64,000 nt of DNA from Candidatus Binatia bacterium. GTDB lineage: Bacteria; Desulfobacterota; Binatia; Bin18. The stretch covers positions 2,444,538-2,508,537 of the forward strand of contig OZ246887.1 of the NCBI GenBank assembly GCA_965231765.1, in the 5' to 3' direction. Below are positions 10,018-57,533 of this stretch, in pieces. A program made the translations under genes and the position numbers. The notes beneath the pieces are model-generated. The model did no database searches and had not been told where the DNA came from. It saw only the letters and a program-made list of their open reading frames with translations. How positions within the stretch are numbered: the stretch's first letter is position 1; each line of letters opens with the position of its first letter.

Positions 10018-10203
10018 GGCCTCTCCTTCAAACAGTTTCCTCACGAAACAAATCTGCCGAAATGCCCAGTCTGTATCTCTGCGGAATCGCATTTCCAGCA
10101 GTATTGCGGGGGATCATATCGCCAATTTCACCGTCGAGGACAGCCCCCATCGGACAGATCCTTTCAAATCCTTTTTTGCCAACCTGAGTCGACAAAATAT
10201 CCC

Positions 10204-13434: not shown

Positions 13435-14731
13435 GGGTGAAGTCAAGTTCGAGTTGTTCGGTCGTTGTTTGCTCTTGCATGCTGGGTGGGAAGTGGATGT
13501 CGAGGTCTTCGACGGAGAGTTTGCCGGAGATGAGACGGGGGAGTAAGCGGTCACGACTTGCCGCCAGTATTTCGTTGGATTTCACCAGATTGATAATCTG
13601 AGTAAACGCTTTGTCGAAATGACGCTGAAACGCCTCCAGCAATTCGTCGTCCGGAATTTTTATTTCTAGCTTCTTCAGAAAATCCCAATCCGCACGAGGC
13701 ATCTTCGTTCCCTTTGAAGCGGTTGTAGCTAACTCAATGAAGGTTTTACTAAAAACTGTAAAGAGCAAGAAGCCTTCAAACTCTCTGCTTTTGGGTCTGA
13801 TGACGATGGCATCAGAGGAGCAGGCACCAGAAAAATGTACTAATGCTACCTTGTGCAAATATGGCCTAATCTTCGCAAAAAGGATGTCTCTTTCTTGAAA
13901 AAGAAGTTTATTGCTCTCTACTGAATCCCCCGTAGCCGATTCGATAATCGTTATTGATTCTCTGGGGATGTGCTCCAGACCTAAATATTTTTCACTATCG
14001 GAAAGATCCTTCTTCTTTACCCCTTTCCTTATTTCACCAGAAATGCTGGCAATTGGTCTAACCTCCCACCCCTCCGGCACTCCCTTCACAAACTTCACCT
14101 TTTCATGCCCCGGAAAGCGCATCCGCACAAACCATTCGCGGTAGATTTCCTCGGCCATTTTTTCCAGCAGCACGATGCGGCGTTTGTTGTTTTCGATTAG
14201 GTCGTCGTAGGCGGAGAGAATGGCGGCGATTTTTTTCTGGATATCGGGAGGCGGCAGATAAAACTCGTACCTGAAGATTGAATCTAAAGTGATGCTAGCC
14301 TGATTGGCTGCTCCCTGCGCAGTATTGATTATATATCCTTTAAAGCTTCCGTCTTTGAGTAGATAGAACAAAAAATCATTGTGGATTCCTTCCGTAGGCC
14401 GAACAATAACCGCATTTTGATTGAGGAGAGATCTGTCCAATACCTTTGGAATTCTTATGACCTTCCCTACTACTGATTCCGGATTATTTGGCCAAGATCC
14501 AACCGTTTGGATTACAATATCACCTTCGATTAGCTCGGTATCTTTTCTCTCCGCAGCAATATTTTCAGCCACATAAACCAAATTGTTCGCGTCGACAGAA
14601 CTCTCGGTAAAATTCGCAACCTTAACAACAGGAATCCCAGTTTCTTGGAACCATTCGCTTTTAAAAGCGAATCCTTTTTTATGGGAAACGGCACCTCCGA
14701 GTCCTCGTGTTGACCATTTACTCATTGTCAT
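13427..14731 (-). CDS. hsdS: type I restriction-modification specificity subunit (HsdS), two TRDs
   Basis: 434 aa with two target-recognition halves separated by a conserved central helix (IVLLEKMAEEIYREWFVRMRF) and a C-terminal repeat (LPRLISGKLSVEDL). Confidence 0.85.
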   Translation of the reverse strand: MTMSKWSTRGLGGAVSHKKGFAFKSEWFQETGIPVVKVANFTESSVDANNLVYVAENIAAERKDTELIEGDIVIQTVGSWPNNPESVVGKVIRIPKVLDRSLLNQNAVIVRPTEGIHNDFLFYLLKDGSFKGYIINTAQGAANQASITLDSIFRYEFYLPPPDIQKKIAAILSAYDDLIENNKRRIVLLEKMAEEIYREWFVRMRFPGHEKVKFVKGVPEGWEVRPIASISGEIRKGVKKKDLSDSEKYLGLEHIPRESITIIESATGDSVESNKLLFQERDILFAKIRPYLHKVALVHFSGACSSDAIVIRPKSREFEGFLLFTVFSKTFIELATTASKGTKMPRADWDFLKKLEIKIPDDELLEAFQRHFDKAFTQIINLVKSNEILAASRDRLLPRLISGKLSVEDLDIHFPPSMQEQTTTEQLELDFTHA

Positions 14732-16160
14732 CAGCCAAGATGCTCCGTAGCTTGTGTCCTTTTTCCGTCAACCGATATTGCTGCAACCGACTGGTGGGCT
14801 TTTCAGGAATCGTCCACTCAATCAAACCCTCTTGCAGCAGTATACGCACCTGCTTATTGAGTTCACCTGAAACAGTGGCATGCCCAAGGCTAGCAGCCAG
14901 GTTCGCTTTCCCCATAGGTGCCCTTTTTAACGCAACAAGAATCTTCTTACTAAGATATGACTCTGGCCGTGACTCTGGCCGTGACTCTGGCCGTGACTCT
15001 GGCCCCGCCGCCAAATCTCTCTGTTCCTCATCCGCCAATCCTGCCTTCACCGGATCACGAGGAAAGACCACATTCATCCAATGTTCTTGTGGTCTGATCT
15101 GTGGTTCTGGAACGCCGTAATCCCGACATAAGTCTCTGATCCGCTTGATACCAGTGCCGATCTGTTCAACCATGTCCATACGGTAAAAAATACCGAACAG
15201 CAGCGGGTTGCGGGGCACGCTCTTGATCCCTAATTCTTCTTCAGTCATCCCAGCAGGCAGCCCGCCTGGATTGATGATTTCCACTCGATCACGAAATATG
15301 TGGACCTGCACATTAGCAGTTGAGCGATAATCGCGGTGTGCTACCGCATTGACGATCGCTTCTCGTAGGGCATCAACGGGCAGCTCAGGACGCTCTTCGC
15401 GTGTGATTTGTGGTTTAATAATAAATTCGGTGTTGAGCTTAGAAACAACGTATGACACGACATCTCGACAGACCGTATACAAGTCGGCCGTAAAATCTTT
15501 CCGGTCAAGAATATAAACGTTGGTTTTCCCCTGGAATAATGCGCAGGATACATGTGCACGCAGACTGAACTTTTGAATATTCTCCGCTAGTAACCACGCC
15601 CCAGCATGGGTCATAGTCTTGCCCCGCAGCAAGCCCAGATTCTGCAAGGTTGATAACGGCTCCATACCGTCAGGAATAGAGGCGCGTTTGGAAAACCCCT
15701 TCCAAACGGTATCTGTCAAATCTTCTTCCAGACTGAAACGAGTACACGGCGTTTCATCAAAATGAATCACGCCCTCTTGAAAGAAGAACTCGCGGATCTC
15801 ATTTCGACTCAGCTGCTGCGAAGACGCGCCTTCTCTCAAATAGAACTTCCCAGCAAACGAGTAGGGTTTACCGTTTTGCGCGGGAATAGACACAACGAGA
15901 ACATCACTGACGCTTTCCACATCAATGACTAAGGGTGGGTCCACGGAGCGAGCCAGGCTTTGGACGATGGACTTGAGCTTATTATGGTCTTTAACCCCGT
16001 GAATTGTTCCATCGTCGGCCACGCCGATTAGCACAACTCCACCAGTTGCATTGGCAAACGCACACAGTTCTCGCCCCAAATCGCTCGTGCCAGAACGTTT
16101 GAACTCGCTTGTAAAGCCTTCACCGAGAGCAATGAGCGCGTTGAGAGTGTCTTGGGTCAT
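14718..16160 (-). CDS. AlbA_2 (Schlafen-like divergent AAA) + HATPase_c_4 (RecG-C-like) + winged-helix protein, embedded in the hsd operon
   Basis: The N-terminal AlbA_2 motif is LCAFANATGGVVLIGV. The middle HATPase_c_4 motif is AIVNAVAHRDY...IINPGG. The C-terminus has a wHTH. It lies between hsdM and hsdS and overlaps the hsdS start by 14 nt. Confidence 0.8.
   Translation of the reverse strand: MTQDTLNALIALGEGFTSEFKRSGTSDLGRELCAFANATGGVVLIGVADDGTIHGVKDHNKLKSIVQSLARSVDPPLVIDVESVSDVLVVSIPAQNGKPYSFAGKFYLREGASSQQLSRNEIREFFFQEGVIHFDETPCTRFSLEEDLTDTVWKGFSKRASIPDGMEPLSTLQNLGLLRGKTMTHAGAWLLAENIQKFSLRAHVSCALFQGKTNVYILDRKDFTADLYTVCRDVVSYVVSKLNTEFIIKPQITREERPELPVDALREAIVNAVAHRDYRSTANVQVHIFRDRVEIINPGGLPAGMTEEELGIKSVPRNPLLFGIFYRMDMVEQIGTGIKRIRDLCRDYGVPEPQIRPQEHWMNVVFPRDPVKAGLADEEQRDLAAGPESRPESRPESRPESYLSKKILVALKRAPMGKANLAASLGHATVSGELNKQVRILLQEGLIEWTIPEKPTSRLQQYRLTEKGHKLRSILADDNE
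14959..15004 (-). repeat. in-frame 12-bp tandem repeat (gactctggccgt x3.8) encoding (RPES)4 linker
   Basis: The direct repeat is visible in the sequence, inside the CDS 14718..16160 between the HATPase_c_4 and wHTH domains. Confidence 0.9.
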
Positions 16161-16188
16161 GATTTCTACGCGGCGTTGTTATTCAGCG

Positions 16189-18279
16189 TCAACTATCATC
16201 ACCAGCCAACTGCTTCACATTATGCGCAATGACGGACTCAAGCGCAGCAGCTTGCTTATTCAACTCCAGGAGTTCTGCATTGAGAGACAGAATTTCTTCA
16301 ATAAACTCCTCCTCAGTCTTGCCGTCCTCCTCAATCACCACACCCACATACCGGCCCGGATTGAGCGAATAATCTTGCTCCTTGACTTCCTCTAGCGTGG
16401 CCAGTTTGCACAGGCCAGTCACATCTTCGTATTCCGCCTTGGGGAAGCGTTCTTGGAGCCAATGGATATGGATGAAAAAGCTCTCGGCGGTTTTCACCTC
16501 GGTGTGCAGGGCTTCGAGCGCGGTTTTAAGGGCTTTGGTTTGGCGGTCTCCGCTACTGCGTTTGCCGTTGGTATTGGCCTGTTGCTTTTCGTGCTGGCGG
16601 ACAATGGTATCCAGCTGCTTTAGGCCGGCATGTAGAGCCATGAAAAAGGGATCAAAAGCCTGACGCAGTTGATGCTGAGCGTGATTCTTTTTGGCAACAT
16701 CTGTTTGGTCACTGTGCTTGTGTTGATACGCATCGTAGCGCGTCTGGAGCTGCGTCAGTCCCGCCCATTGCCTGACCAGCTCGGCGACTGCGTGTTTGCC
16801 GTTTGCGTCGTCCAACACCTCTAACAATTGCTCAGAGACCGGTTCGACTTGGGTTTTGTTCTCAATGAGTTTGTCCATGCCTTGCGCGAAATACGTATCA
16901 ATCAGCTGCACAAACGTGTCGCGCTTGCCTTTGTGCAAGTGGCTGATGATAGCGACGTTCTGAATCTGCTCTTCAGAAAACTCACGGTGGGCACGGTCGA
17001 TCGGAGTGAAGATATTCCGCGCATCGATAAACAGAATATGCTTGTCCGCCTTGGCCGTATCAAAGAACCATAGCGTCGCTGGCAAGGTGACGGTGTAGAA
17101 CATATTCGACGGCAAGGTCAGCATGCCGTAAATGAGATTCTTCTCAATCAGTGTCTGCCGGATATCAGCCTCAGAGTGCCGAGCATCTGAGGCCGAATTG
17201 GCCATGACCAGAGCCGCCCGGCCGTGCTCCTTGAGCGAAGAGGCAAACAGGTTGATCCACAGATAGTTGGCGTTTGGGACGGTCTCTTTGCCTTGGTCAC
17301 TCTTTTTGACCTTGCTTTTATTGCGCGGAATACCAAAGGTTTTGAAGCGCGCGTCTTTGCCGACACTGTCAAAGCTGACATCGTCTACATTAAACGGCGG
17401 ATTGGCCATCACATAGTCAAATTTGCCAAAGCTGCCGTAGGGATCTTCATAATAACTGTTGGCTTGGCGCACTTCCCCGCGCAGGCCATTCACCGCCAGG
17501 TTCATTTTGGCCAGCTTGACAGTCTCTAATGTTTTTTCCTGCCCATAGACATAGATATCGCCGTCAGGCGTATTCGGGCCATTTTTCCCATTCCGGCCTG
17601 CCAGGTCGTTACGATGTCGCTCAATGAACTGCGCCGACTGGACAAACATCCCACCTGAACCGCAAGCAGGGTCAAACACCGTGCCGCGATAGGGTTCGAT
17701 AATCTCTACCATCAGTCGCACAACCGAACGCGGGGTAAAGAACTCGCCACCCTTTTGGCCTTCGCTCTTGGCAAACTCGCCCAGAAAATACTCATAGATT
17801 TGCCCGAACATATCGCCGCTGGCGTCTGGCGGGATATCGGCAAAGTTTTTCAGCAACTGGTTGGGAATAGTTTTATCGGTCCGGGTCAGGCGGGTGTATT
17901 CATCCTGAGGCAGCACGCCTTGCAGCTCGGGTTTATACTTCTCAATTGCTTCCATCGCCTTTTTTATTGCCTTGGTGATGTTTTCCTGCTCTGGCAGGCT
18001 GAGCAAATAATCGTAGCGCGCATGATCCGGTAGATAGAAGCCACACTTTTCAATCGCAATCTCTGAAATCGGTTTCTCCCGACGAGTGTCTTTGAGCTTC
18101 TTGTATTCCTCTAAGATGTCAGGTTCGTGCCTGCGATAATTGTTGTCCGCAAACTTCAGAAAGATCAGCCCCAGCACTGGGGTTGAGTATTCACTGGCCT
18201 TCAAGTCCGAGTTTGCCCGCAGGTTATCTGCTGCCGCCCACAGGTTATTTTCGAGTTGTTTGAGTTGTTCTTTTGTCAT
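16189..18279 (-). CDS. hsdM: type I restriction-modification N6-adenine DNA methyltransferase (HsdM), with a long C-terminal extension
   Basis: HsdM N-terminal domain (NLWAAADNLR), SAM-binding DPACGSGGM, catalytic NPPF. At 696 aa it is about 150-200 aa longer than typical HsdM, and the tail is coiled-coil-like. Confidence 0.9.
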   Translation of the reverse strand: MTKEQLKQLENNLWAAADNLRANSDLKASEYSTPVLGLIFLKFADNNYRRHEPDILEEYKKLKDTRREKPISEIAIEKCGFYLPDHARYDYLLSLPEQENITKAIKKAMEAIEKYKPELQGVLPQDEYTRLTRTDKTIPNQLLKNFADIPPDASGDMFGQIYEYFLGEFAKSEGQKGGEFFTPRSVVRLMVEIIEPYRGTVFDPACGSGGMFVQSAQFIERHRNDLAGRNGKNGPNTPDGDIYVYGQEKTLETVKLAKMNLAVNGLRGEVRQANSYYEDPYGSFGKFDYVMANPPFNVDDVSFDSVGKDARFKTFGIPRNKSKVKKSDQGKETVPNANYLWINLFASSLKEHGRAALVMANSASDARHSEADIRQTLIEKNLIYGMLTLPSNMFYTVTLPATLWFFDTAKADKHILFIDARNIFTPIDRAHREFSEEQIQNVAIISHLHKGKRDTFVQLIDTYFAQGMDKLIENKTQVEPVSEQLLEVLDDANGKHAVAELVRQWAGLTQLQTRYDAYQHKHSDQTDVAKKNHAQHQLRQAFDPFFMALHAGLKQLDTIVRQHEKQQANTNGKRSSGDRQTKALKTALEALHTEVKTAESFFIHIHWLQERFPKAEYEDVTGLCKLATLEEVKEQDYSLNPGRYVGVVIEEDGKTEEEFIEEILSLNAELLELNKQAAALESVIAHNVKQLAGDDS

Positions 18280-49645: not shown

Positions 49646-50194
49646 GTGGCAAACGACCATCATCACGGTCACCAGCATGGTCCAGGGTTTCGTTTCTGTC
49701 CGAAATGTGGCGGGCAGTTAGAACGGAAGCAGATCAAGGCCAATGAGCCGGAGCGGCGGGTGTGCAGCGCCTGCGCGTTTATCCTTTACGAAGATCCCAA
49801 AATCGCCGCATGCACCATCCCTATCATCGATAATAAAATCGTTCTCCTCAAACGCGGCATCGAACCGAATTATGGGCAATGGGTGTTTCCAGGCGGATTC
49901 ATGGATCGTGGCGAGCGTGTTGAGGACGCCGCGATTCGAGAAACGTGGGAAGAGGCCAATCTCGCAGTTGAAATCGACCACCTGCTGAATATCTACTCGT
50001 ATACAGGCCAGCCCGTCGTGATTGTTGTCTATCTTGTCAATGTCGTAGGGGGCGAGCTCAAAGCCATGGACGAAACGCTTGAGGCCGCGACTTTTGCCCC
50101 AGAGGAAATTCCCTGGGATGAGTTGGCGTTTGAAAGTACGAAAGAAGCGTTACGGGAGTATGTAGCATTGCAGGAGCCGGTTGCTAAAGGGTAG
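49646..50194 (+). CDS. NUDIX hydrolase with an N-terminal zinc ribbon
   Basis: Motifs CPKCGG...CSAC and NUDIX box GGFMDRGERVEDAAIRETWEEANL. The GTG start follows a GAGGAGGA Shine-Dalgarno. Confidence 0.8.
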   Translation: MANDHHHGHQHGPGFRFCPKCGGQLERKQIKANEPERRVCSACAFILYEDPKIAACTIPIIDNKIVLLKRGIEPNYGQWVFPGGFMDRGERVEDAAIRETWEEANLAVEIDHLLNIYSYTGQPVVIVVYLVNVVGGELKAMDETLEAATFAPEEIPWDELAFESTKEALREYVALQEPVAKG

Positions 50195-50246: not shown

Positions 50247-51074
50247 TCATACCAGCCACTCCTGCTGGCCATTGATAAACCCACTCACCACATCCACCGT
50301 TGTCTCTGGCCGTTCCATATGGAACATATGGCTGGCGTTGGACAGAATGGCAAGCTCAGCATTTGGAATCTGCTGCGATAAAATCAGCGAGTTTTCCGGT
50401 GGTACCAAGCCGTCTTCTTTGCCGGTAATCACCAAGGTTGGCACGCTGATCTGCGGCAAACGCGCGTAGGTATCGTGCCCTTGCAAAGCGGCCATTTGGC
50501 TCACCATGCCATGTTTCGGCGTGGGATGAGCGGCCGACATTTGGTTCATCTCGATGAGCGTGGCCATATGCTTTTGTATAAACCAGGGAGTTACTGCCAC
50601 CTTCGTCATTGCTAATGCGGCTTCCTCGACACTCACCGATTCAATGTTGCCCAGCATATTGAGCACCTCGGGATCGCTCGACAGCGTCGTCTTTTCCCCG
50701 CCACAGTTTGTACAGCCGAGGATCAACGTTTTGACTCGCTGGGAATGACGCAGGGCAAACTCCTGGGCGATCATTCCGCCCATAGAAATCCCAAATATAT
50801 GAGCTTTATCGATGCCTAAGCCATCCAGCAGACCAGCAGTGTCGTCGGCAAACATCTGCATCGTATACGGCTCATCTGGCTTATCACTCTGGCCCACACC
50901 CCGATTATCAAAAGCAATGGTTCGGAAGGATTTGGCAAAGGATGGAATATTCCAATGCCAGCCGATCGAACTCACGGTAAAGCCCATAATCAAAATCAGC
51001 GGCTCAGCGTTGCTGTTTTCTTGACCGTGTTCTTCGTAGTACAGCGATATTCCGTTGGATTGGAGGTGTGGCAT
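50247..51074 (-). CDS. alpha/beta hydrolase
   Basis: GISMGG nucleophile elbow. Confidence 0.8.
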   Translation of the reverse strand: MPHLQSNGISLYYEEHGQENSNAEPLILIMGFTVSSIGWHWNIPSFAKSFRTIAFDNRGVGQSDKPDEPYTMQMFADDTAGLLDGLGIDKAHIFGISMGGMIAQEFALRHSQRVKTLILGCTNCGGEKTTLSSDPEVLNMLGNIESVSVEEAALAMTKVAVTPWFIQKHMATLIEMNQMSAAHPTPKHGMVSQMAALQGHDTYARLPQISVPTLVITGKEDGLVPPENSLILSQQIPNAELAILSNASHMFHMERPETTVDVVSGFINGQQEWLV

Positions 51075-51088
51075 AGGCAGCGTGCTCC

Positions 51089-51358
51089 TTACAAATAGTG
51101 AATAAAATTCTTCATCGCGGACAGCAAGGCTTCCAGATCCGCGTACCCTTGCAACTCGTCATACAGGAAATAATACTGGCTGCGGACTTCGGCTTCATCC
51201 TGTTCATCTTCGTCCACAGAGACGGCGGCGTCAAACTCCTTGAGCATCGCCTGGGTCTGCAGCTTGGTCTCCATCGGAATGGTATCGTCGGTGGCAATCA
51301 ATAGACGCGTCTGATGGATCAGCCGGCCAACGATGTATGCATCACTATGTTCGGCCAT
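51089..51358 (-). CDS. small acidic hypothetical protein
   Basis: 89-aa ORF between a hydrolase and a TPR gene. Confidence 0.3.
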   Translation of the reverse strand: MAEHSDAYIVGRLIHQTRLLIATDDTIPMETKLQTQAMLKEFDAAVSVDEDEQDEAEVRSQYYFLYDELQGYADLEALLSAMKNFIHYL

Positions 51359-51407: not shown

Positions 51408-51767
51408 TTACGAGCCCCCGCCGAGCTTCTTTTCTTTCAACTCCCGTTTCCAGTCCAGCACTCGGGCTTTGGCCGCTTCGGCCTCAGCCTCAGGAATCAT
51501 ATCCTTCTGCTGGTAGAAGCGAGATAAGATGGTAAAACCCATCGTATCATCCGGGGTCAATACAGTCAGCTGCTTCGCCGCCTCGATCGCCTCGTCGAGC
51601 ATATCCTTATCGGCATACGCATGGGCCAGATCGTGGACTGCATCAACGTATTTGGGATCAATGTCCAGAATCGCTTTATACGCTTCAATCGCCTGATCCG
51701 CTTCGCCGTCACATAACAGGTCGTACGCCTGATCGTAAAGGTCTCGGAGTTCTTCGCTAGATGCCAT
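51408..51767 (-). CDS. small TPR-repeat protein
   Basis: TPR-like motifs AIEAYKAILDIDPKY and HDLAHAY. Confidence 0.5.
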   Translation of the reverse strand: MASSEELRDLYDQAYDLLCDGEADQAIEAYKAILDIDPKYVDAVHDLAHAYADKDMLDEAIEAAKQLTVLTPDDTMGFTILSRFYQQKDMIPEAEAEAAKARVLDWKRELKEKKLGGGS

Positions 51768-51862
51768 GATTGGATCTCCTCTAAAAATAGCTTTTCAGAG
51801 CGAGGTGTAATGTGTGTATCCTCGTCTCACACAGCGTTTGCAACCTAGCCTATTTGCGCCTC

Positions 51863-52996
51863 ATGGCCAAGCCCGGTACAGTCTGGGCTATGGTGGAACC
51901 GGCACAATTGCCTCAGACGAGTGTTGAGGCCCAAGTCCAAGACTTCATCTCTGCTCCGGAAGGCAAAGATTTTCATACTATGGCGCTGGCTGTCTTTGCG
52001 CACCAGTTTCGTCTGAATGAGCCCTACCAGCGATTCTGTTTGGCGCGGGACTGTAGCCCCGAAACTGTGGCGCGCTGGCAGGACATTCCAGCCGTGCCAA
52101 CCGTCGCCTTTAAAGAGTTAGATCTCAGCTGTGGTCCACCCCAAAAGATCTTTCGGACCAGTGGCACTACCCGTGGCCAAGAAAAACGCGGCCGCCATCT
52201 TGTGCCTGACCTGAGTCTGTACCACGCTTCAGCTTTATCACACTTTGATCGCTGCGTACTGCCAGACAGCAGACGGTTGCGAGTCTTAGCACTGATCCCT
52301 TCACCGAGCGCCCGACCGGATTCCTCTTTGACCCAAATGGCTGAATGGATTATCGCTGAGCGGGGTGAACAGGGCAGTCAATTTTTCATTGACGAAACAG
52401 GCATTCACCTGGACGCGTTTGTTGCTGCAATCAGCCAAGCCCAGGACGAGGGAATACCGGTATGCATCCTGTCCATCACCGCAGCTCTGGTTGCCTTCTT
52501 CGACTGGTGTGCAGCCAATGCGACCCACTTTGCTTTGCCGGGCAGCAGCCGCATCATGGACACTGGCGGTAATAAGGGCCAAGGGCGGCCGATCTCTCGG
52601 AATGGCTTTTTTCAATCGTGCTGGAAATATTTAAAAGTCGCGGGTTATTATTGTGTCAACGAATACGGCATGACCGAAATGGCATCACAGTTTTATGACA
52701 ATGTGTTATGCAACCGGTTTTGCCGGAGTAACGAGCCACGCTACAAAATGGGACCGGCATGGACACGTACGTTGGTGGTAGATCCTGAGACATTAGCCGA
52801 AGTCCCAGCAGGACAGCCAGGCATACTGCGACACTTTGACTTGGCAAACTGTGGTTCTGTCATGGCGATTCAAACTGATGATATGGGGTATTTGACGCGG
52901 GCTGGGTTTGAGATTACCGGGCGCGTGCCAGGAGCAGAAGCACGCGGGTGTGCGCTGGCGCTGGATGAGTTTTTGGGAGCGATGAATAAGACCTAA
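51863..52996 (+). CDS. LuxE-family acyl-protein synthetase (fatty acid activating, acyl-AMP forming)
   Basis: Aligns by eye with Vibrio LuxE: FRTSGTTRG vs FTSSGTNG, MDTGGNKG vs ITGGGWKS, C-terminal GCALALDEF vs GCALSLTEAF. The start is uncertain (ATG 51863 or 51890). Confidence 0.8.
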   Translation: MAKPGTVWAMVEPAQLPQTSVEAQVQDFISAPEGKDFHTMALAVFAHQFRLNEPYQRFCLARDCSPETVARWQDIPAVPTVAFKELDLSCGPPQKIFRTSGTTRGQEKRGRHLVPDLSLYHASALSHFDRCVLPDSRRLRVLALIPSPSARPDSSLTQMAEWIIAERGEQGSQFFIDETGIHLDAFVAAISQAQDEGIPVCILSITAALVAFFDWCAANATHFALPGSSRIMDTGGNKGQGRPISRNGFFQSCWKYLKVAGYYCVNEYGMTEMASQFYDNVLCNRFCRSNEPRYKMGPAWTRTLVVDPETLAEVPAGQPGILRHFDLANCGSVMAIQTDDMGYLTRAGFEITGRVPGAEARGCALALDEFLGAMNKT

Positions 52997-53066
52997 AACG
53001 TGAAGCGTGGTGAAAAAATAAGAGGGCCTTTGTCTTTTTACGCTTCCCGTTTTACACTTTATCTGC

Positions 53067-54401
53067 ATGTCCTCCTTGACCCCCACCCAACTCCACACCA
53101 TCATCAACGACTTACTTGCCGCCCGCGAACGTCACCTTATCCATCGCCCAGTCCAAGACATTCTGACAAGTATTGACGCTGTTATCGCCCGGTTTCTTGA
53201 TCCCGCGTCGAGCGAACGCCAAGAAGCTGAGACGCTCCTGCCTGGAAAAACCGGCCTCTCATCGGAAATGATCCGGCATGCTCTGCCGCTTATTTTTCAG
53301 GAGTATCAACCTGAACGATTACAGAGTCTTTTCGCGACTGAACTCGGGACTTCCACTGTCCTTGATCAGTTTCAAGATGTCCAAAATACCCAAGACAGCG
53401 TGGATGGTTCTCTGAAAGCATACGGTCCACGTTTGATCACCCATGTCCTGGCTGGTAATCTACCTGGTGCCGGTATTGACGAAATAATCTTCTCACTCTT
53501 GGTCAAATCGGCCACACTCGTCAAAACCGCTTCTGCGGGTGCTTCTCTCCAGACCTTATTCACCAGCAGTCTGACTCAATGTGACTCTGAGCTGGGCTCT
53601 TGTCTCGCGCTTGTCAGCTGGCCGGGGGGCGAGACTGAGCTAGAGGACATTGCATTTTCCGAAGCCGAGATTGTCATGGCTGCGGGTTCAGATGAAAGCG
53701 TGGCTGCGATTCGCCAGCGCGTTCGCGGCAGATTCATCGGTTATGGTCATAAGATCAGCTTTAGCCTGATCACACATGAAGCACTGAGGGAAGCAGAGGC
53801 ATCAGCCAAACAAGCAGCCTACGATATTGCCCTATTTGACCAGCAAGGCTGCCTCTCCCCACAGCTCGTCTATGTCGAAGACAACGGACACGTGAGTCCC
53901 CAAGAGTTTGCCGCCCTCTTGGCCACGGCACTCGCATATTGGCAAACAACCCTACCACGGGGGCAGGTCAGCCCAGCAGTCAGCACCGAGATACGACGCG
54001 TCCGGGACGAAGCAGAATGGCGAGCCCTAGCCGGAAAAGAGACCGTCGTGCACGCAAGCTCGCAGGGAACGGAGTGGACGGTCATATATGAGGCCGATCC
54101 GACGTTTATTCCTTCACCTGTGTATCGCACGGTCCGAGTAAAACCGCTCGCATCCTTCGATCAAATCGATTCCCTCCTCATCGCTTGGCGTCCTTATCTC
54201 GAAGCCGTCGGGACTGTTGTTCCGACCGAGCAACATCGACGCCGGACGCTGCTTGATGTCCTCGGAGGCAGCGGCGTGAATCGCATATGTCCTATTGGCA
54301 TGATGCAAACTCCGCCTCTTAGCTGGCGCCACGGCGGGAGACCACGTATTGCTGATCTTGTTCACTGGGCTGGGGTTGAGAGATCAAGCAACGAGGACTG
54401 A
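53067..54401 (+). CDS. LuxC-family acyl-CoA/acyl-protein reductase (aldehyde-forming)
   Basis: Aldehyde-dehydrogenase-like fold with the QQGCLSPQ catalytic Cys region and LuxC-like VLAGNLPGAGIDEI. It starts 70 nt after luxE. Confidence 0.75.
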   Translation: MSSLTPTQLHTIINDLLAARERHLIHRPVQDILTSIDAVIARFLDPASSERQEAETLLPGKTGLSSEMIRHALPLIFQEYQPERLQSLFATELGTSTVLDQFQDVQNTQDSVDGSLKAYGPRLITHVLAGNLPGAGIDEIIFSLLVKSATLVKTASAGASLQTLFTSSLTQCDSELGSCLALVSWPGGETELEDIAFSEAEIVMAAGSDESVAAIRQRVRGRFIGYGHKISFSLITHEALREAEASAKQAAYDIALFDQQGCLSPQLVYVEDNGHVSPQEFAALLATALAYWQTTLPRGQVSPAVSTEIRRVRDEAEWRALAGKETVVHASSQGTEWTVIYEADPTFIPSPVYRTVRVKPLASFDQIDSLLIAWRPYLEAVGTVVPTEQHRRRTLLDVLGGSGVNRICPIGMMQTPPLSWRHGGRPRIADLVHWAGVERSSNED

Positions 54402-54465
54402 GTCCTCGTTGCTCAGTCCTTGTCCGAGTTGCCGAGGGAGAATCCCTCGCGTATGCTTTCCCCGT

Positions 54466-55677
54466 ATGAGCACCCTACGTGATGATTTTCTTCGCTTTGT
54501 GTGTCAAACCTCGCCTGAACCAATGGGTGTTGAAGTCGCCCATGCTCATGGCTGTGTTGTCGTGGACGAAAATGGCCGCGAATATCTGGATCTCTTATCG
54601 GGAATTGGCGTAGCGGGTATCGGTCATGCTCATCCGGCAGTTATCCAAGCCGTCCAAGACCAAGCCACTCGGTATCTCCATACGATGGTGTATGGGGAGT
54701 ATATCCAAGCGCCTCAAGTCCGACTGGCACGCCGCTTGGCGGAAATAACTCCCGACCCCTTATCGGTTACATATTTTACGAATAGCGGCACCGAAGCGGT
54801 CGAAGGGGCGCTCAAAACGGCACGTAAGTATACTGGCCGTTCGCATCTGGTCAGCTTTATTGGCAGCTTCCATGGCGATACCTTGGGATCTGTCTCAGTT
54901 GGTGGCAATCCTGTCTACCGCACGCCATTTGAGCCGCTGCTGCCAACGGTCACGTTTTTGCCGTTTAACGATACACAGGCGCTCAGCGCGATCGACGAAA
55001 CTGTAGCCGCCGTCATTATTGAGCCTATTCAAGGTGAGGGGGGAGTCCGGATTCCTGATACTGCCTTTCTGCCAGCCCTACGCCAGCGTTGCTCTGAGGT
55101 TGGGGCGCTACTGATTTTTGATGAAGTCATCACCGGGTTTGGCCGCACGGGGACAGTCTTTGCGTGTGAACACTGGCAGGTTGGGCCTGATATTCTGCTC
55201 CTGGCTAAGGCACTGGGCGGCGGCATGCCACTCGGGGCGTTTGTCAGTACTCCAGAGATCCTCGCAACCCTCTCAGTCGATCCGCCGCTTGCCCATGTGA
55301 CCACGTTTGGTGGACACCCCGTGTGCTGTGCGGCAGGGCTGGCTGCTCTGGATGTGATGTTTCAAGAGCAACTGCCACAGCGGGCGCAGAAAAAAGGCCA
55401 GGAATTTGTGACAAAGTTAGAGGCGCTGATCGGCCAAGGCGGAATGACGCAGGTACGCGGGCGCGGGTTATTAATCGGCCTCGACTTTGCTACTCCTGAA
55501 GCTACTCAGGGCTTTGTACAGCGCTGCTTTGCCGGAGGCGTAGTCCTGGGTTGGACGCTGCATGAAGATACCGTTGTGCGTTTGGCTCCGCCGTTGATCA
55601 TCTCATCTGCTGAGATTGACCAGGCTATTGATGTCATACGGAAAGCGCTTGCTACCGATTCGGCACAGAGCGGATAA
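54466..55677 (+). CDS. class III PLP-dependent aminotransferase
   Basis: 404 aa from ATG 54466 with the class III aminotransferase-fold N-terminus. It starts 64 nt after the luxC-like stop. Confidence 0.8.
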   Translation: MSTLRDDFLRFVCQTSPEPMGVEVAHAHGCVVVDENGREYLDLLSGIGVAGIGHAHPAVIQAVQDQATRYLHTMVYGEYIQAPQVRLARRLAEITPDPLSVTYFTNSGTEAVEGALKTARKYTGRSHLVSFIGSFHGDTLGSVSVGGNPVYRTPFEPLLPTVTFLPFNDTQALSAIDETVAAVIIEPIQGEGGVRIPDTAFLPALRQRCSEVGALLIFDEVITGFGRTGTVFACEHWQVGPDILLLAKALGGGMPLGAFVSTPEILATLSVDPPLAHVTTFGGHPVCCAAGLAALDVMFQEQLPQRAQKKGQEFVTKLEALIGQGGMTQVRGRGLLIGLDFATPEATQGFVQRCFAGGVVLGWTLHEDTVVRLAPPLIISSAEIDQAIDVIRKALATDSAQSG

Positions 55678-55698
55678 GACCTATACGGAGAGACCATC

Positions 55699-55954
55699 AT
55701 GGCAGAAGACAACACCGCCCCCACTGCTGATTCCCAACCTCTTACCCCAGAAGTCTTTTGTACCGAAAAGATTGCTCCACATCGGTGCCGGAGAACGGCC
55801 AGAGACGCCACAGACAGTATTGCCGGTGGAAGCTGAAGACGCGCCAAAGATGGCTCGCGGAGAAATGAACGCCCAGCAGGCGTTCATGGGCGGAGTTATG
55901 CAAGTGACGGGCGCTATGGCGCTGGCAATGCAGTTTGGGACGGCCATGATGTGA
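55699..55954 (+). other. SCP2 (sterol-carrier-protein-2)-like domain, apparently frameshifted/degenerate
   Basis: Frame 1 has ATG 55699 plus 45 codons. Frame 2 ends ...MARGEMNAQQAFMGGVMQVTGAMALAMQFG, matching the SCP2 C-terminal motif NPQ.AFM.GKLKI.G.M..AMKL. Confidence 0.25.
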
Positions 55955-55999
55955 GGATGGTTTCCAATGAGAGTACTGATTTCGACATCCTCACCCTAG

Positions 56000-56020
56000 C
56001 CCTCTCCCTGAGGGAGAGGG
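56000..56020. terminator. perfect 9-bp hairpin (CCCTCTCCC tga GGGAGAGGG) between convergent genes
   Basis: Seen in the sequence. Confidence 0.45.
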
Positions 56021-56037
56021 AACTGGCATCTCCCTTT

Positions 56038-56478
56038 TCACTCTCCGATTTTCCCCCATGCATTCACCTTCTTCGGTGTAATCCGCACCATACTATTGTG
56101 TCCAAAGATCAGTTCCATTTCCCGATACTGCGGATATCGCTCTCGGAGTAAGGCAAGCGAGCGATCATATTCGGCTTCGTCTTCAACCAGCGCCGATGTG
56201 CCCCGGACCATCACGTACGCCAGCTGGCTCCAATCATCAGAATAGTCATCAATGACCAGCGCGACTTGCGGATTCTCTAACATATTCTGAATCCGTTTGA
56301 GTGGTTTGCCAGTCTGTCGCTTGGGCTTTTGATCCACCACAAAATAGAAGTGTCGGCCGTCATAGGCGTAACAAAAGGGGATGAGATGGGGCTGCTTATC
56401 ATTCCCCGCCGTGGCCAAGCGAGCGACAAGATGGGCGTTAATAAACTGTTCGACAGAATCTGAAATCAGGTTGCTCAT
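56038..56478 (-). CDS. pyridoxamine 5'-phosphate oxidase-family (PPOX class, likely F420/FMN-binding) protein
   Basis: Split-barrel PPOX N-terminus (VARLATAGNDKQPHLIPFCYAYDG). Confidence 0.7.
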   Translation of the reverse strand: MSNLISDSVEQFINAHLVARLATAGNDKQPHLIPFCYAYDGRHFYFVVDQKPKRQTGKPLKRIQNMLENPQVALVIDDYSDDWSQLAYVMVRGTSALVEDEAEYDRSLALLRERYPQYREMELIFGHNSMVRITPKKVNAWGKIGE

Positions 56479-57533
56479 ACTGCTTCTTCCCTACTCGCCT
56501 GAAACGTTTCCTGCGCCTCTTGATACAAATCCTCGGCCTGGCCCGAGTAGCGTGGAGAAAAGTGAAACACAACCAGCTTTTGCACCTGGGCTGCGCGCCC
56601 CAGCAGCCCGGCCTGGCGGGCGGTCAAATGGTAGCGCTTGGTGGCCTGATCTTCGTCGCTATTCAGAAAAGGCGACTCACAAAAGAAAACATCTGACCCG
56701 TGCGCTAAGTCGGCAATACGCGCTGCATTATCCGGGCTATACAGTGTATCAACGACATAGGCCAACTTCTGCCCTCGGGTCTGTTTGACCAAGCAATTCC
56801 GGAGTTCGCCCAGGACAAAGGTTCGGGAATAGTGCTGCCCAGCGTGGCGCCATTCGGCACGAATGCCAAAATCATCCGGCTCCCCAGCCCGCAAGGCCCG
56901 CTTCACCTCCGCCAGCCAGGGTCCGGGACCGACCGCCAACTCTGATAACGCATCCGTATCCACATTCAGGTGAGTCTTTTCCGCTATGGCAAAGGCTAAT
57001 GAGTCAATCCGATGATCAAGATGAGTGGTTTGCACCAAAAAATTGGGCTCTTCGAGCAGTGTCCCAGTAAATGGCAGCGGTGACAGGACTTCAGGCAAAA
57101 AACCCGCCCCTGCCTGAAAGCGCGTGCGTTGCATGGTTTCACGACCAACTTGTGTGACCTCAATGGCAAAACTATAACCATCAACCAAATTCCAGGTATA
57201 GCCACGCAATTTTCCGGCAACACACTCAATAATCCCTGGCGGTCCGAACAAATGCAGGGTTTTGTCGCGAGCTAAGAACATTCGCAGCAACCGATCAAAG
57301 CCAAAAAAGTGATCCATATGGCAATGCGAGACAAACACATGGCTCACCCGCAGCATCTCCGTGGCTGACAGCGCCTCATTCTGGCCAAGATCAAAAACGA
57401 TAGCTCGCCCTTCTAAGCGGAGATGAATATACAGGCCAGGGTCCCCAAAAGGGCCATTGACCAGACGAGGAGCAAAGGCAGAAGTTGGCGGACTCGACAC
57501 GGGATTCGGTGTAGAATTTGCGGCAGGATTCAT
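56475..57533 (-). CDS. MBL-fold metallo-hydrolase, RNase Z/ElaC-like
   Basis: HCHMDH motif. Overlaps the PPOX gene start by 4 nt. Confidence 0.7.
   Translation of the reverse strand: MNPAANSTPNPVSSPPTSAFAPRLVNGPFGDPGLYIHLRLEGRAIVFDLGQNEALSATEMLRVSHVFVSHCHMDHFFGFDRLLRMFLARDKTLHLFGPPGIIECVAGKLRGYTWNLVDGYSFAIEVTQVGRETMQRTRFQAGAGFLPEVLSPLPFTGTLLEEPNFLVQTTHLDHRIDSLAFAIAEKTHLNVDTDALSELAVGPGPWLAEVKRALRAGEPDDFGIRAEWRHAGQHYSRTFVLGELRNCLVKQTRGQKLAYVVDTLYSPDNAARIADLAHGSDVFFCESPFLNSDEDQATKRYHLTARQAGLLGRAAQVQKLVVFHFSPRYSGQAEDLYQEAQETFQASREEAV

What the first reader, a model, noticed from the sequence alone, without database searches (positions are those of the whole stretch)
51768..56037. LuxE-like synthetase, LuxC-like reductase and class-III aminotransferase cluster with no luciferase: predicted fatty acid to aldehyde to amine route
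Three co-directional genes with 64-70 nt gaps encode (1) a LuxE-family acyl-protein synthetase, (2) a LuxC-family aldehyde-forming acyl reductase and (3) a PLP class-III aminotransferase. Divergent TPR/small genes bracket them upstream, and convergent PPOX/MBL genes plus a perfect hairpin at 56000-56020 bracket them downstream.

From established LuxCDE chemistry, LuxE and LuxC together convert a fatty acid to a fatty aldehyde. An omega-type transaminase placed directly downstream would convert that aldehyde into a primary alkylamine or another amino-lipid. No luxAB, luxD or other light-emission genes are in the window.

A degenerate SCP2-like lipid-carrier ORF immediately follows the aminotransferase, which suggests a lipidic substrate. 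I am not aware of this three-gene arrangement as a described pathway, but I cannot search the literature here.
Basis: partly seen in the sequence, partly recalled or inferred. Interest (0 to 1): 0.7.

Follow-up and report, generated by a model that had tools for sequence, protein, structure and literature searches.

The report
Possible alternative route to queuosine precursor
Three adjacent genes that look like a "fatty acid to amine" pathway are more likely a previously undescribed way of making preQ1, the precursor of the tRNA base queuosine, from its carboxylic-acid intermediate, in place of the two classical nitrile enzymes QueC and QueF.

Summary
The window (a Candidatus Binatia-type genome) carries three co-directional genes: a LuxE-like adenylating acyl-protein synthetase, a LuxC-like thioester reductase and a class-III aminotransferase. 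A small TPR gene and an 89-aa gene sit divergently upstream. There is no luxAB or luxD.

The carboxylate to aldehyde to amine logic holds, but the fatty-acid substrate is not supported.

I examined 168 related LuxC-like loci. The LuxE/LuxC pair, with or without the aminotransferase, sits directly beside queuosine-pathway genes in seven separate clades: QueE, QueD or QueG. The two clades closest to the window have QueG→AT→LuxE→LuxC and QueE→LuxE→LuxC→AT. QueC, QueF, Tgt and QueA never appear in 2.1 Mb of flanks. In a related QueE lineage, QueC occupies the slot that LuxE-LuxC-AT fills elsewhere.

Best reading (about 0.55): LuxE-like activates 7-carboxy-7-deazaguanine, LuxC-like reduces it to the 7-formyl compound, and the aminotransferase yields preQ1, bypassing QueC and QueF. 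This rests on gene neighbourhood and chemistry only. The window itself has no que gene nearby, and I could not test whether QueC and QueF are absent genome-wide. No paper in the searched library describes this.

The parts
51863..52996 (+). LuxE-like adenylate-forming acyl-protein synthetase, 377 aa (an alternative GTG start lies at 51812). Proposed role: ATP-dependent activation of 7-carboxy-7-deazaguanine (CDG) and self-acylation on the C-terminal Cys of the motif 'ARGCAL'.
   Evidence: PF04443 scores 50.6 bits against a cut-off of 24.9. The NCBIfam LuxE equivalog scores only 49 bits against a cut-off of 550. The only PDB sequence hit is LuxE of 7xc6; the equivalents of K238, R355 and C364 align (PMC9157457). 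The C-terminal RGC(S/A)(L/I) motif is present in 137 of 144 homologues.
53067..54401 (+). LuxC-like thioester reductase, 444 aa, ALDH fold. Proposed role: accepts the acyl group on Cys262 ('DQQGCLSP') and reduces it with NAD(P)H to 7-formyl-7-deazaguanine.
   Evidence: PF05893 scores 249 bits. The NCBIfam LuxC equivalog scores 77 bits against a cut-off of 750. The AF2 model (pLDDT 78.8) best matches 7xc6_A LuxC, with TM 0.76 and 21% identity. The Cys motif is present in 158 of 165 homologues. The protein ends about 27-40 residues before the C-terminal cleft-closing element of PpLuxC (PMC9157457).
54466..55677 (+). Class-III PLP aminotransferase, 403 aa, 'type A'. Proposed role: glutamate-dependent amination of the aldehyde to preQ1.
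   Evidence: PF00202 scores 369 bits. It falls below every NCBIfam cut-off (argD subfamily 384.5 against 410; putrescine AT 359 against 612). The closest solved structure is E. coli putrescine aminotransferase YgjG, followed by LysJ/ArgD. It is 56-85% identical across Binatia-type loci. It is 53% identical to the AT of the QueG->AT->LuxE->LuxC operon in L127 and 62% identical to the AT of the QueE->LuxE->LuxC->AT operon in L041.
51408..51767 (-). Small TPR protein, 119 aa, divergent from LuxE. A conserved accessory gene of unknown role.
   Evidence: Hits the TPR Pfam families. Found in 35 of 42 loci in the window's Binatia clade and in all 11 loci of the distant UTPRO1-like clade, with 55-60% identity to the UTPRO1-like copies. 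A 116-aa TPR gene with 33-37% identity also lies about 2 kb from LuxC in L085, L091 and L092.
51089..51358 (-). 89-aa acidic protein ('s89') with no family match. Co-conserved with the TPR gene and the triad in Binatia-type loci.
   Evidence: No Pfam or NCBIfam hit. Present in 31 of 42 loci in the window's clade and 6 of 11 in the UTPRO1-like clade, at about 62-64% identity to the UTPRO1-like copies. It is not related to the 80-aa gene found between QueE and AT in other clades (hhalign probability 0.8%).
55699..55954 (+). Remnant of a 210-aa SCP2-domain gene: an internal deletion of about 125 codons plus a frameshift. Probably non-functional here.
   Evidence: Three-frame translation. Full-length homologues lie directly after the AT in L025, L027, L028, L032, L033 and L039. 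The same deletion appears in two other assemblies, L001 and L002. The Pfam SCP2 match covers only positions 48-99 of the 101-position model.
56000..56020 (.). Perfect 9-bp stem / 3-nt loop hairpin (CCCTCTCCC-TGA-GGGAGAGGG) between the convergent gene sets. Possibly a bidirectional terminator.
   Evidence: Sequence and fold. It does not pass the T-run criterion of the terminator scan.

Best explanation
The triad is a QueC/QueF-independent branch of queuosine (7-deazaguanine) biosynthesis.

Proposed steps, all inferred:
1. QueD and QueE make 7-carboxy-7-deazaguanine (CDG).
2. The LuxE-like enzyme adenylates the CDG carboxylate and transfers it to its own C-terminal cysteine.
3. The flexible C-terminal tail delivers the acyl group to Cys262 of the LuxC-like reductase.
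4. NAD(P)H reduces the thioester to 7-formyl-7-deazaguanine.
5. The class-III aminotransferase, using glutamate and PLP, converts the aldehyde to 7-aminomethyl-7-deazaguanine (preQ1).
6. Tgt inserts preQ1 into tRNA.

What is shown: family membership, conserved catalytic residues, synteny of the triad, and repeated physical linkage of the LuxE/LuxC pair to QueE, QueD and QueG in independent clades.

What is inferred: the substrate (CDG), the product (preQ1), the replacement of QueC/QueF, and the transfer of all this to the window's clade by orthology.
For: 1. QueE linkage. QueE (TIGR04349, 285-310 bits, at or close to the cut-off of 300) sits directly upstream of the genes in four LuxC clades, in three gene orders:
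   - QueE-LuxE-LuxC-AT in L041.
   - QueE-AT-LuxE-LuxC in L066 and L084.
   - QueE-80aa-AT-LuxE-LuxC in L085, L086 and 13 metagenome loci.
2. QueD linkage. QueD is 56-62% identical to E. coli QueD, and TIGR03367 scores 109 against a cut-off of 89. It lies immediately after LuxC in 39 of 43 loci of another clade.
3. QueG linkage. QueG (TIGR00276, 385 bits against a cut-off of 200) is co-directional and adjacent in QueG-AT-LuxE-LuxC in L121 and L127. It also lies 2-3 kb away in the Chloroflexota loci L050 and L057.
4. Position of the window's clade. In an NJ tree it is sister to the QueG-linked clade and next to the QueE-linked L041 clade.
5. Counts. Of 168 loci, 64 carry QueD, QueE or QueG in the held flanks. 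Among 69 non-Binatia-type loci of at least 8 kb, 40 do. There is no QueC, QueF, Tgt or QueA hit at E<=0.1 in 2.1 Mb.
6. Slot replacement. In a QueE lineage 67% identical to L041's QueE, QueC follows QueE with overlapping stop and start. That is the slot taken by LuxE-LuxC-AT in L041.
7. Chemistry. CDG to preQ1 is exactly a carboxyl to aminomethyl conversion, and CDG and CPH4 are the only carboxylates in the pathway (established pathway knowledge).
8. Catalytic residues. The LuxE/LuxC catalytic Cys, Lys and Arg are conserved.
9. The LuxC-like protein lacks the long-chain cleft element (PMC9157457).
10. The neighbours are housekeeping genes (prfB, lnt, nuo, hem, suf), and conservation is phylum-wide and high.
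Against: - No que gene lies within the 64-kb window or within ±8 kb of any Binatia-type locus, so the link for this window rests on orthology.
- I could not test whether the genomes carrying the system lack QueC and QueF.
- No preQ1 riboswitch was found in the window or in four QueE-linked loci.
- The QueD-linked clade has no aminotransferase nearby.
- Several LuxE/LuxC clades show no que linkage: Eisenbacteria, L088, and L089 (next to aspartate kinase).
- Two different AT subfamilies are used, and no shared specificity residue was found.
- The closest solved AT acts on putrescine.
- A lipid-binding-type SCP2 gene follows the AT in one Binatia subclade.
Confidence: 0.55

Rival explanations
1. 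The triad converts a long-chain fatty acid to a fatty aldehyde and then to a primary alkylamine or amino-lipid, by LuxCE-type fatty acid reductase plus an omega-transaminase.
For: - Canonical LuxE/LuxC act on myristic acid (PMC9157457).
- A LuxC-like reductase (TabE) together with a transaminase (TabA) makes dodecylamine for tambjamine BE-18591.
- An SCP2-domain gene follows the AT in seven related loci.
- PigE-type AT similarity scores 322 bits.
Against: - The proteins are only about 20% identical to true LuxE/LuxC and fall far below the NCBIfam equivalog cut-offs.
- The C-terminal element that forms the 40 Å hydrophobic cleft is absent.
- No acyltransferase, ACP or lipid genes are co-conserved.
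- SCP2 is confined to one subclade and is a deletion remnant in this window.
- The recurrent partners are QueE, QueD and QueG.
Confidence: 0.08
2. The triad reduces and aminates another small polar carboxylate. Examples: GABA to 4-aminobutanal to putrescine, or an amino-acid side-chain carboxylate to a semialdehyde to a diamino acid, analogous to ArgB/ArgC/ArgD or LysZ/LysY/LysJ.
For: - The AT belongs to the ArgD/LysJ/putrescine-AT group. The best PDB hit is YgjG (301 bits), and it nearly reaches the argD subfamily cut-off.
- In the window's AT, Asp replaces the substrate-carboxylate-binding Arg/Lys ('FHGDT').
- L089 has LuxE-LuxC directly after hom-thrC-aspartate kinase.
Against: - That Asp is not conserved in the ATs of L041 ('YHGGT') or in type B ATs ('YHGLT').
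- No arg, lys or polyamine genes are linked in any of the 168 loci, whereas que genes are.
Confidence: 0.12
3. The genes do belong to 7-deazaguanine/pterin metabolism but perform a different step. They might reduce 6-carboxy-tetrahydropterin (CPH4), or make a 7-formyl or other 7-deazaguanine derivative for a purpose other than preQ1/tRNA-Q. In either case they would coexist with QueC and QueF.
For: - The same que-gene linkage applies.
- The QueD-linked clade has no AT nearby.
- Absence of QueC and QueF from the genomes was not shown.
Against: - QueE adjacency makes its product, CDG, the natural substrate.
- QueG adjacency ties the set to tRNA queuosine specifically.
- No DpdA/Tgt-type or nucleoside-antibiotic genes were seen in the flanks.
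Confidence: 0.17

Closest known systems
LuxC-LuxE fatty acid reductase of the lux operon (PDB 7xc6)
   Same: - Two-protein architecture.
- LuxE-type adenylating enzyme without the ANL C-terminal subdomain, carrying an acyl-accepting Cys in a short C-terminal tail.
- Equivalents of K238 and R355 are conserved.
- LuxC-type ALDH fold with a catalytic Cys (TM 0.76 to 7xc6_A).
   Different: - About 20% identity, far below the NCBIfam equivalog cut-offs.
- No luxA, luxB, luxD or luxG.
- The LuxC-like protein lacks the C-terminal segment (P460-P488) that closes the hydrophobic cleft.
- The gene partners are an aminotransferase and queuosine genes.
QueC (preQ0 synthase) + QueF (nitrile reductase), the canonical CDG to preQ0 to preQ1 route
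   Same: The proposed net conversion, CDG to preQ1, is the same. QueC also starts by adenylating the CDG carboxylate. QueC occupies the position next to QueE in a related lineage.
   Different: - The folds are unrelated: PP-loop ATPase and tunnel-fold reductase, against ANL and ALDH folds.
- The canonical route runs through an amide and a nitrile, using 2 ATP, NH3 and 2 NADPH. The proposed route runs through a thioester and an aldehyde, using 1 ATP, 1 NADPH and glutamate.
- There is no sequence similarity.
Reductase + class-III transaminase pairs that make amines from activated acids (TabE/TabA of tambjamine BE-18591; TamH; PigE)
   Same: The same thioester to aldehyde to primary amine logic. 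TabE is in the LuxC-containing ALDH cluster. PigE's AT domain scores 322 bits against the window's AT.
   Different: - Those act on fatty or polyketide chains inside secondary-metabolite clusters, and the acyl group arrives on ACP or CoA.
- Here a LuxE-type self-acylating ligase is used.
- The context is housekeeping and queuosine genes.
ArgB/ArgC/ArgD and LysZ/LysY/LysJ (carboxylate to semialdehyde to amine in arginine/lysine synthesis) and putrescine aminotransferase YgjG
   Same: - The AT is in this sequence group.
- It has the PLP lysine ('LAKALGGG').
- It has the Glu/Arg pair for glutamate/2-oxoglutarate ('EPIQGEGG', 'VRLAPPL').
   Different: - Below all curated cut-offs.
- Activation is by adenylation and thioester, not by acyl phosphate.
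- There is no linkage to arg or lys genes.

Membership tests
LuxE acyl-protein synthetase (PF04443 / NCBIfam NF052244) | Profile match above the curated threshold | tested here: inconclusive
   The Pfam family threshold is met (50.6 bits against 24.9). The NCBIfam equivalog is not met (49 against 550). The protein is a member of the broad family, not an equivalog of luminescence LuxE.
LuxE acyl-protein synthetase | C-terminal flexible motif with the acylated Cys (TRxxKGCxLS, Cys364), plus catalytic Lys238 and Arg355 | tested here: met
   'AEARGCALA' aligns with 'REQKGCSLS'. 'GGNK' aligns with 'GGWK238'. 'GR' aligns with R355 (PMC9157457). The motif is present in 137 of 144 homologues.
LuxC acyl-protein/acyl-CoA reductase (PF05893 / NF052251) | Profile match and ALDH-like fold with a catalytic Cys | tested here: met
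   Pfam scores 249 bits. 'DQQGCLSP' aligns with 'DQQACFST' of PpLuxC. The best PDB fold match is 7xc6_A, at TM 0.76. The NCBIfam equivalog scores 77 against 750, so the protein is not an equivalog.
LuxC acyl-protein/acyl-CoA reductase | C-terminal oligomerisation segment (P460-P488) closing a >40 Å hydrophobic cleft for a C14 chain | tested here: not met
   The protein ends at residue 444, aligned to about residue 448-453 of PpLuxC. The last 27 positions of the 478-position NCBIfam model are unmatched (PMC9157457).
Bacterial lux (bioluminescence) system | luxA/luxB luciferase and luxD acyltransferase in the same cluster | tested here: not met
   None is present within ±8 kb in the window or in related loci. 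The two PF00296 genes at 7.4-10.1 kb are F420-LLM/SfnG-like.
Class-III aminotransferase (PF00202) | Profile match, PLP-binding Lys, and the Glu/Arg pair for the dicarboxylate co-substrate | tested here: met
   Scores 369 bits. 'LAKALGGG', 'EPIQGEGG' and 'VRLAPPL' align with YgjG.
ArgD / putrescine aminotransferase / GabT / OAT equivalogs | Score above the NCBIfam curated cut-off | tested here: not met
   The argD subfamily scores 384.5 against 410. PRK03244 scores 375 against 457. Putrescine AT scores 359 against 612. All others are lower.
Queuosine / 7-deazaguanine biosynthesis pathway | Conserved physical clustering with established pathway genes | tested here: met
   This is met for the protein family: QueE, QueD or QueG is adjacent in 7 clades and 64 of 168 loci. 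It is not met for the window's own clade, which has no que gene within ±8 kb.
Queuosine / 7-deazaguanine biosynthesis pathway | Complementary phyletic distribution with QueC/QueF, and biochemical conversion of CDG to preQ1 | not testable with these tools
   Whole-genome gene content could not be queried. Only the flanks were examined: 2.1 Mb with no QueC or QueF.

The most novel reading that the evidence does not exclude
Bacteria of several phyla (Binatota, NC10-like, Verrucomicrobia-like, Chloroflexota and others) make preQ1 without nitrile chemistry. A LuxE/LuxC-type carboxylate reductase turns 7-carboxy-7-deazaguanine into 7-formyl-7-deazaguanine, and a class-III aminotransferase aminates it. 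This replaces QueC and QueF in a pathway that is regarded as fully worked out.
Probability: 0.5. Interest if true: 0.9.

Novelty: new variant of a known kind. Interest (0 to 1): 0.8.

Why it matters
Queuosine biosynthesis (FolE, QueD, QueE, QueC, QueF, Tgt, QueA, QueG/H) is treated as a closed pathway, and QueF is the only known biological nitrile reductase.

If the proposal holds, several things follow:
- There would be a second, cheaper route from CDG to preQ1: 1 ATP, 1 NADPH and glutamate, against 2 ATP, NH3 and 2 NADPH.
- It would close apparent Q-pathway gaps in poorly known phyla.
- It would give hundreds of 'acyl-CoA reductase / acyl-protein synthetase / aspartate aminotransferase family' annotations a function.
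- It would extend the LuxCE mechanism from fatty acids to a heteroaromatic acid.
- It would provide a self-contained three-enzyme carboxylate-to-amine module for biocatalysis.

The idea is directly testable by complementing E. coli ΔqueC or ΔqueF and by a simple coupled assay.

Tried and rejected
- **preQ1 riboswitch.** An Rfam search at a permissive E-value found none in the window or in L041, L084, L085 and L086.
- **Viral contigs.** No LuxC-like relatives were found, so there is no phage 7-deazaguanine cluster link.
- **Binatia QueE.** I tried to find the Binatia QueE and its neighbours by searching with L041's QueE and matching contig lengths. No Binatia chromosome appeared among the best 120 hits.
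- **s89 versus the 80-aa gene.** I tested whether the 89-aa gene and the 80-aa gene of QueE-linked loci are homologous. hhalign gave a probability of 0.8%, so they are not.
- **Asp in the AT motif.** I considered the Asp in 'FHGDT' (the position of GabT R141, OAT R180 and YgjG K183) as a specificity marker. I rejected it because L041 has Gly and type B ATs have Leu.
- **α/β-hydrolase as a LuxD analogue.** I considered the gene at 50247-51074. It is PcaD-like, not PF02273, and is absent from distant loci.
- **Luciferase-like monooxygenases as luxAB.** Rejected.
- **Literature.** Eight full-text searches covered LuxC/LuxE + aminotransferase, LuxC-like/LuxE-like, acyl-protein synthetase + acyl-CoA reductase + aminotransferase, 7-formyl-7-deazaguanine, QueC/E/F + carboxylic acid reductase, preQ1 + LuxC, CDG + aminotransferase, and queuosine + LuxE. 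None described the triad or a que link.
- **Naive ORF calling.** In the high-GC loci it gave spurious long ORFs, so I replaced it with tblastn-based mapping.

Full report
**1. Observation**

- Three co-directional genes are present:
  - A LuxE-like gene at 51812/51863-52996. Pfam PF04443 scores 50.6 bits.
  - A LuxC-like gene at 53067-54401. PF05893 scores 249 bits.
  - A class-III aminotransferase at 54466-55677. PF00202 scores 369 bits.
- The spacers are 70 and 64 nt.
- Divergent upstream lie a 119-aa TPR gene and an 89-aa gene with no family match.
- Convergent downstream lie an F420-type PPOX gene and an MBL gene that matches NCBIfam's 'ribonuclease Z' subfamily PRK02126.
- The 9-bp/3-nt hairpin at 56000-56020 is real.

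Two corrections apply.

- The SCP2 ORF is a deletion remnant. Its N-terminal ~28 codons (ATG 55699) and its C-terminal ~57 codons lie in different frames. About 125 codons are missing relative to the 210-aa gene that follows the aminotransferase in L025, L027 and L039. The same lesion is in two other assemblies of the organism.
- The window does contain two PF00296 'luciferase-like monooxygenase' genes, at 7411-8490 and 8941-10092. They are F420-LLM/SfnG-like, lie 42 kb away, and are not luxAB.

**2. Organism and synteny**

The identical LuxC-like protein occurs on multi-Mb metagenome-assembled contigs. Its relatives in species-representative genomes are almost all Candidatus Binatia MAGs.

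In about 50 Binatia-type loci the unit s89<-TPR<- ->LuxE->LuxC->AT is conserved. This includes a very distant branch (UTPRO1-like) where identities to the window are:
- LuxC: only about 30%.
- AT: 56-60%.
- TPR: about 56%.
- s89: about 64%.

Many Binatia carry a variable 1-3.4 kb insertion between LuxC and the AT, made of an antisense SDR gene plus small mobile or TA-like genes. The window lacks it. So the triad is not a chance juxtaposition.

**3. The enzymes**

- **LuxE-like.**
  - Its only PDB sequence hit is LuxE of the P. phosphoreum LuxC-LuxE complex (7xc6).
  - The catalytic Lys238 and Arg355 align, as does the acyl-accepting Cys364 in the C-terminal tail motif. The window has 'AEARGCALA'; LuxE has 'REQKGCSLS' (PMC9157457).
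  - The RGC(S/A)(L/I) motif sits 5-25 residues from the C-terminus in 137 of 144 homologues.
- **LuxC-like.**
  - It keeps the catalytic Cys ('DQQGCLSP'). The motif is present in 158 of 165 homologues.
  - Its AF2 model (pLDDT 78.8) matches 7xc6_A best, with TM 0.76 and 21% identity.
- **Not equivalogs of luminescence LuxE/LuxC.**
  - Both proteins fall far below NCBIfam's equivalog cut-offs: 49 against 550, and 77 against 750.
  - The LuxC-like protein stops before the C-terminal segment that closes the >40 Å hydrophobic cleft for the C14 chain in true LuxC (PMC9157457).
- **Aminotransferase.**
  - It has the PLP lysine and the Glu/Arg pair typical of glutamate/2-oxoglutarate-using class-III enzymes.
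  - It is closest to E. coli putrescine aminotransferase and then to LysJ/ArgD.
  - It is below every curated family cut-off.

The carboxylate to thioester to aldehyde to amine mechanism is therefore well founded. The identity of the acid is not.

**4. What the acid probably is**

Two distant loci had a radical-SAM gene directly upstream of the set, in different gene orders. NCBIfam identifies it as QueE, the 7-carboxy-7-deazaguanine synthase. Further contexts confirmed and extended this.

- **QueE.**
  - QueE->AT->LuxE->LuxC occurs in L084.
  - QueE->80aa->AT->...->LuxE->LuxC occurs in L085 and L086.
  - A metagenome scan seeded with this clade gave 13 more such operons.
- **QueD.** The same scan uncovered a large clade in which QueD follows LuxC immediately, in 39 of 43 loci.
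  - This QueD is 56-62% identical to E. coli QueD.
  - TIGR03367 scores above its cut-off.
- **QueG.** In another clade, QueG (TIGR00276, 385 bits) heads a tight QueG->AT->LuxE->LuxC operon (L121, L127). In the Chloroflexota loci L050 and L057, QueG lies 2-3 kb from LuxE-LuxC.

Counts:
- 64 of 168 LuxC-like loci have QueD, QueE or QueG in the held flanks.
- Among 69 non-Binatia-type loci of at least 8 kb, 40 do.
- A random gene would have a given que gene within 10 kb well under 1% of the time. This is my own estimate.

By contrast, none of the following gave a hit at E<=0.1 in the 2.1 Mb of flanks:
- E. coli QueC, QueF, Tgt and QueA.
- A phylogenetically closer QueC.

Sampling from the QueE side, a lineage whose QueE is 67% identical to that of L041 has QueC overlapping the QueE stop codon. 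That is the slot occupied by LuxE-LuxC-AT in L041.

**5. Inference**

- CDG and its precursor CPH4 are the only carboxylic acids in the queuosine pathway. This is established pathway knowledge.
- preQ1 is the only primary amine in the pathway, and it differs from CDG by exactly a COOH to CH2NH2 change.
- The canonical route uses QueC (amide, then nitrile) and QueF (nitrile reduction).
- A LuxE/LuxC-type reduction of CDG to 7-formyl-7-deazaguanine, followed by transamination, would give preQ1 directly.
- QueE adjacency points to CDG as the substrate.
- QueG adjacency points to tRNA queuosine as the end use.
- The absence of QueC and QueF from que-containing clusters fits non-orthologous displacement.

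Two aminotransferase subfamilies, 36-38% identical to each other, are each recruited next to QueE:
- Type A has 'EPIQGEGG' and occurs in the window, L041 and L127.
- Type B has 'EPIQGRGG' and occurs in L066 and L084-L086.

This argues that the aminotransferase step belongs to the same process.

**6. Relevance to this window**

- No que gene lies in the 64-kb window or beside any Binatia-type locus.
- The assignment rests on orthology. In an NJ tree of LuxC-like proteins, the window's clade is sister to the QueG-linked clade. Identities of that clade to the window are LuxC 45%, LuxE 47% and AT 53%.
- Next in the tree is the clade containing QueE-linked L041, with LuxC 47%, LuxE 52% and AT 62%.
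- All of these clades are far from true LuxC.
- This is good evidence but indirect. I put the CDG to preQ1 reading at about 0.55.

**7. Rivals**

- **Fatty-acid/alkylamine model.** Its support is family precedent, the TabE/TabA dodecylamine pathway, and the SCP2 gene in one subclade. No lipid genes are co-conserved, SCP2 is decayed here, and the long-chain cleft element is missing.
- **Polar carboxylate model** (GABA to putrescine, or an ArgBCD-like semialdehyde route). It fits the AT's nearest relatives and the Asp in 'FHGDT'. That residue is not conserved among the que-linked ATs, and no arg, lys or polyamine linkage exists.
- **Different step in 7-deazaguanine or pterin metabolism.** This cannot be excluded, especially for the AT-less QueD-linked clade.

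**8. Known or new**

Eight full-text searches found no description of this triad or of any link between LuxE/LuxC homologues and queuosine. The closest precedents are:
- LuxCE itself.
- Reductase-transaminase pairs in tambjamine and prodigiosin pathways.
- ArgBCD/LysZYJ logic.

The family is sizeable: 617 clusters at 50% identity with E<=1e-30. I rate it a new variant of a known kind: known enzyme families and chemistry, apparently applied to a new substrate in a pathway thought complete.

**9. Limits**

- Everything beyond family membership and synteny is inference.
- Whole-genome absence of QueC and QueF could not be tested with the tools.
- No riboswitch support was found.
- Several LuxE/LuxC clades show no que linkage.
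- The decisive tests are phyletic complementarity, ΔqueC/ΔqueF complementation, and an in vitro CDG to preQ1 assay. They are listed under next steps.

Noticed in passing
window 55699-55954: The SCP2-domain gene after the aminotransferase is a pseudogene remnant, with about 125 codons deleted and a frameshift. The full-length 210-aa version follows the AT in L025, L027, L028, L032, L033 and L039. The same lesion is in assemblies L001 and L002.
   Followed up: yes
window 7411-8490 (+) and 8941-10092 (-): Two luciferase-like monooxygenase (PF00296) genes. One is an F420-dependent LLM class member and one is SfnG/alkanesulfonate-monooxygenase-like. They are not LuxA/LuxB and lie 42 kb from the triad.
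   Followed up: partly
window 10204-18279 (-): A type I restriction-modification locus (hsdR 1116 aa, hsdS, hsdM). A Schlafen/AlbA_2 + HATPase_c_4 + Fic-like_C gene (14718-16160) is inserted between hsdS and hsdM.
   Followed up: no
L005-L043, between LuxC and AT (e.g. L008 9290-11297, L015 9293-12684): Most Binatia relatives carry a variable 0.7-3.4 kb insertion between LuxC and the aminotransferase. It holds a highly conserved antisense 364-aa SDR/epimerase-like gene plus differing small toxin-antitoxin-like or mobile genes. The window has no insertion.
   Followed up: partly
L143 7903-8637, L138 9162-9926, L145, L165, L170; L015 10747-11520, L017, L023: A YkuD/YafK-like L,D-transpeptidase-fold gene recurs right beside LuxC in two very distant clades. 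In the QueD-linked clade it lies between LuxE and LuxC. In three Binatia loci it lies just after LuxC. The two sets are 42-47% identical.
   Followed up: partly
window 49646-50194 (+); L050 3221-3667, L057 4710-5177: A zinc-ribbon NUDIX hydrolase lies about 1.6 kb upstream of the triad in Binatia. A 36-38% identical NUDIX gene lies between QueG and LuxE in two Chloroflexota loci. It may be another accessory gene, or a coincidence.
   Followed up: partly
L085 4802-5044, L086 3264-3506, L091, L092, L095-L097, L099, L104: An 80-aa protein with no family match is conserved between QueE and the type B aminotransferase. It is unrelated to the 89-aa gene of Binatia.
   Followed up: partly
L089 2860-9086: A shorter LuxC-like gene (361 aa) with LuxE directly follows homoserine dehydrogenase, threonine synthase and aspartate kinase. 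This is a different context that might reflect another substrate in that subfamily.
   Followed up: no
window 56475-57533 (-): An MBL-fold gene passes NCBIfam's 'ribonuclease Z' subfamily PRK02126 (389 bits against a cut-off of 315). It is conserved next to the PPOX gene downstream of the triad in most Binatia loci. Whether this is a tRNA-processing link is unclear.
   Followed up: no
window 54433-54449: A 7-bp GC-rich hairpin sits in the 64-nt LuxC-AT spacer. This is the same position where relatives carry insertions.
   Followed up: no
(representative library): The best hit for the LuxC-like protein in the 50%-identity representative library is only 44% identical, although many 60-96% relatives exist in the other protein collection. 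The window's own cluster seems to be missing there.
   Followed up: no
L001 5179-6008 and 11409-12505: In one low-coverage assembly of the same organism, the α/β-hydrolase and MBL genes are each split into two ORFs, while they are intact in the window and in L002. These are probably assembly errors, not biology.
   Followed up: no
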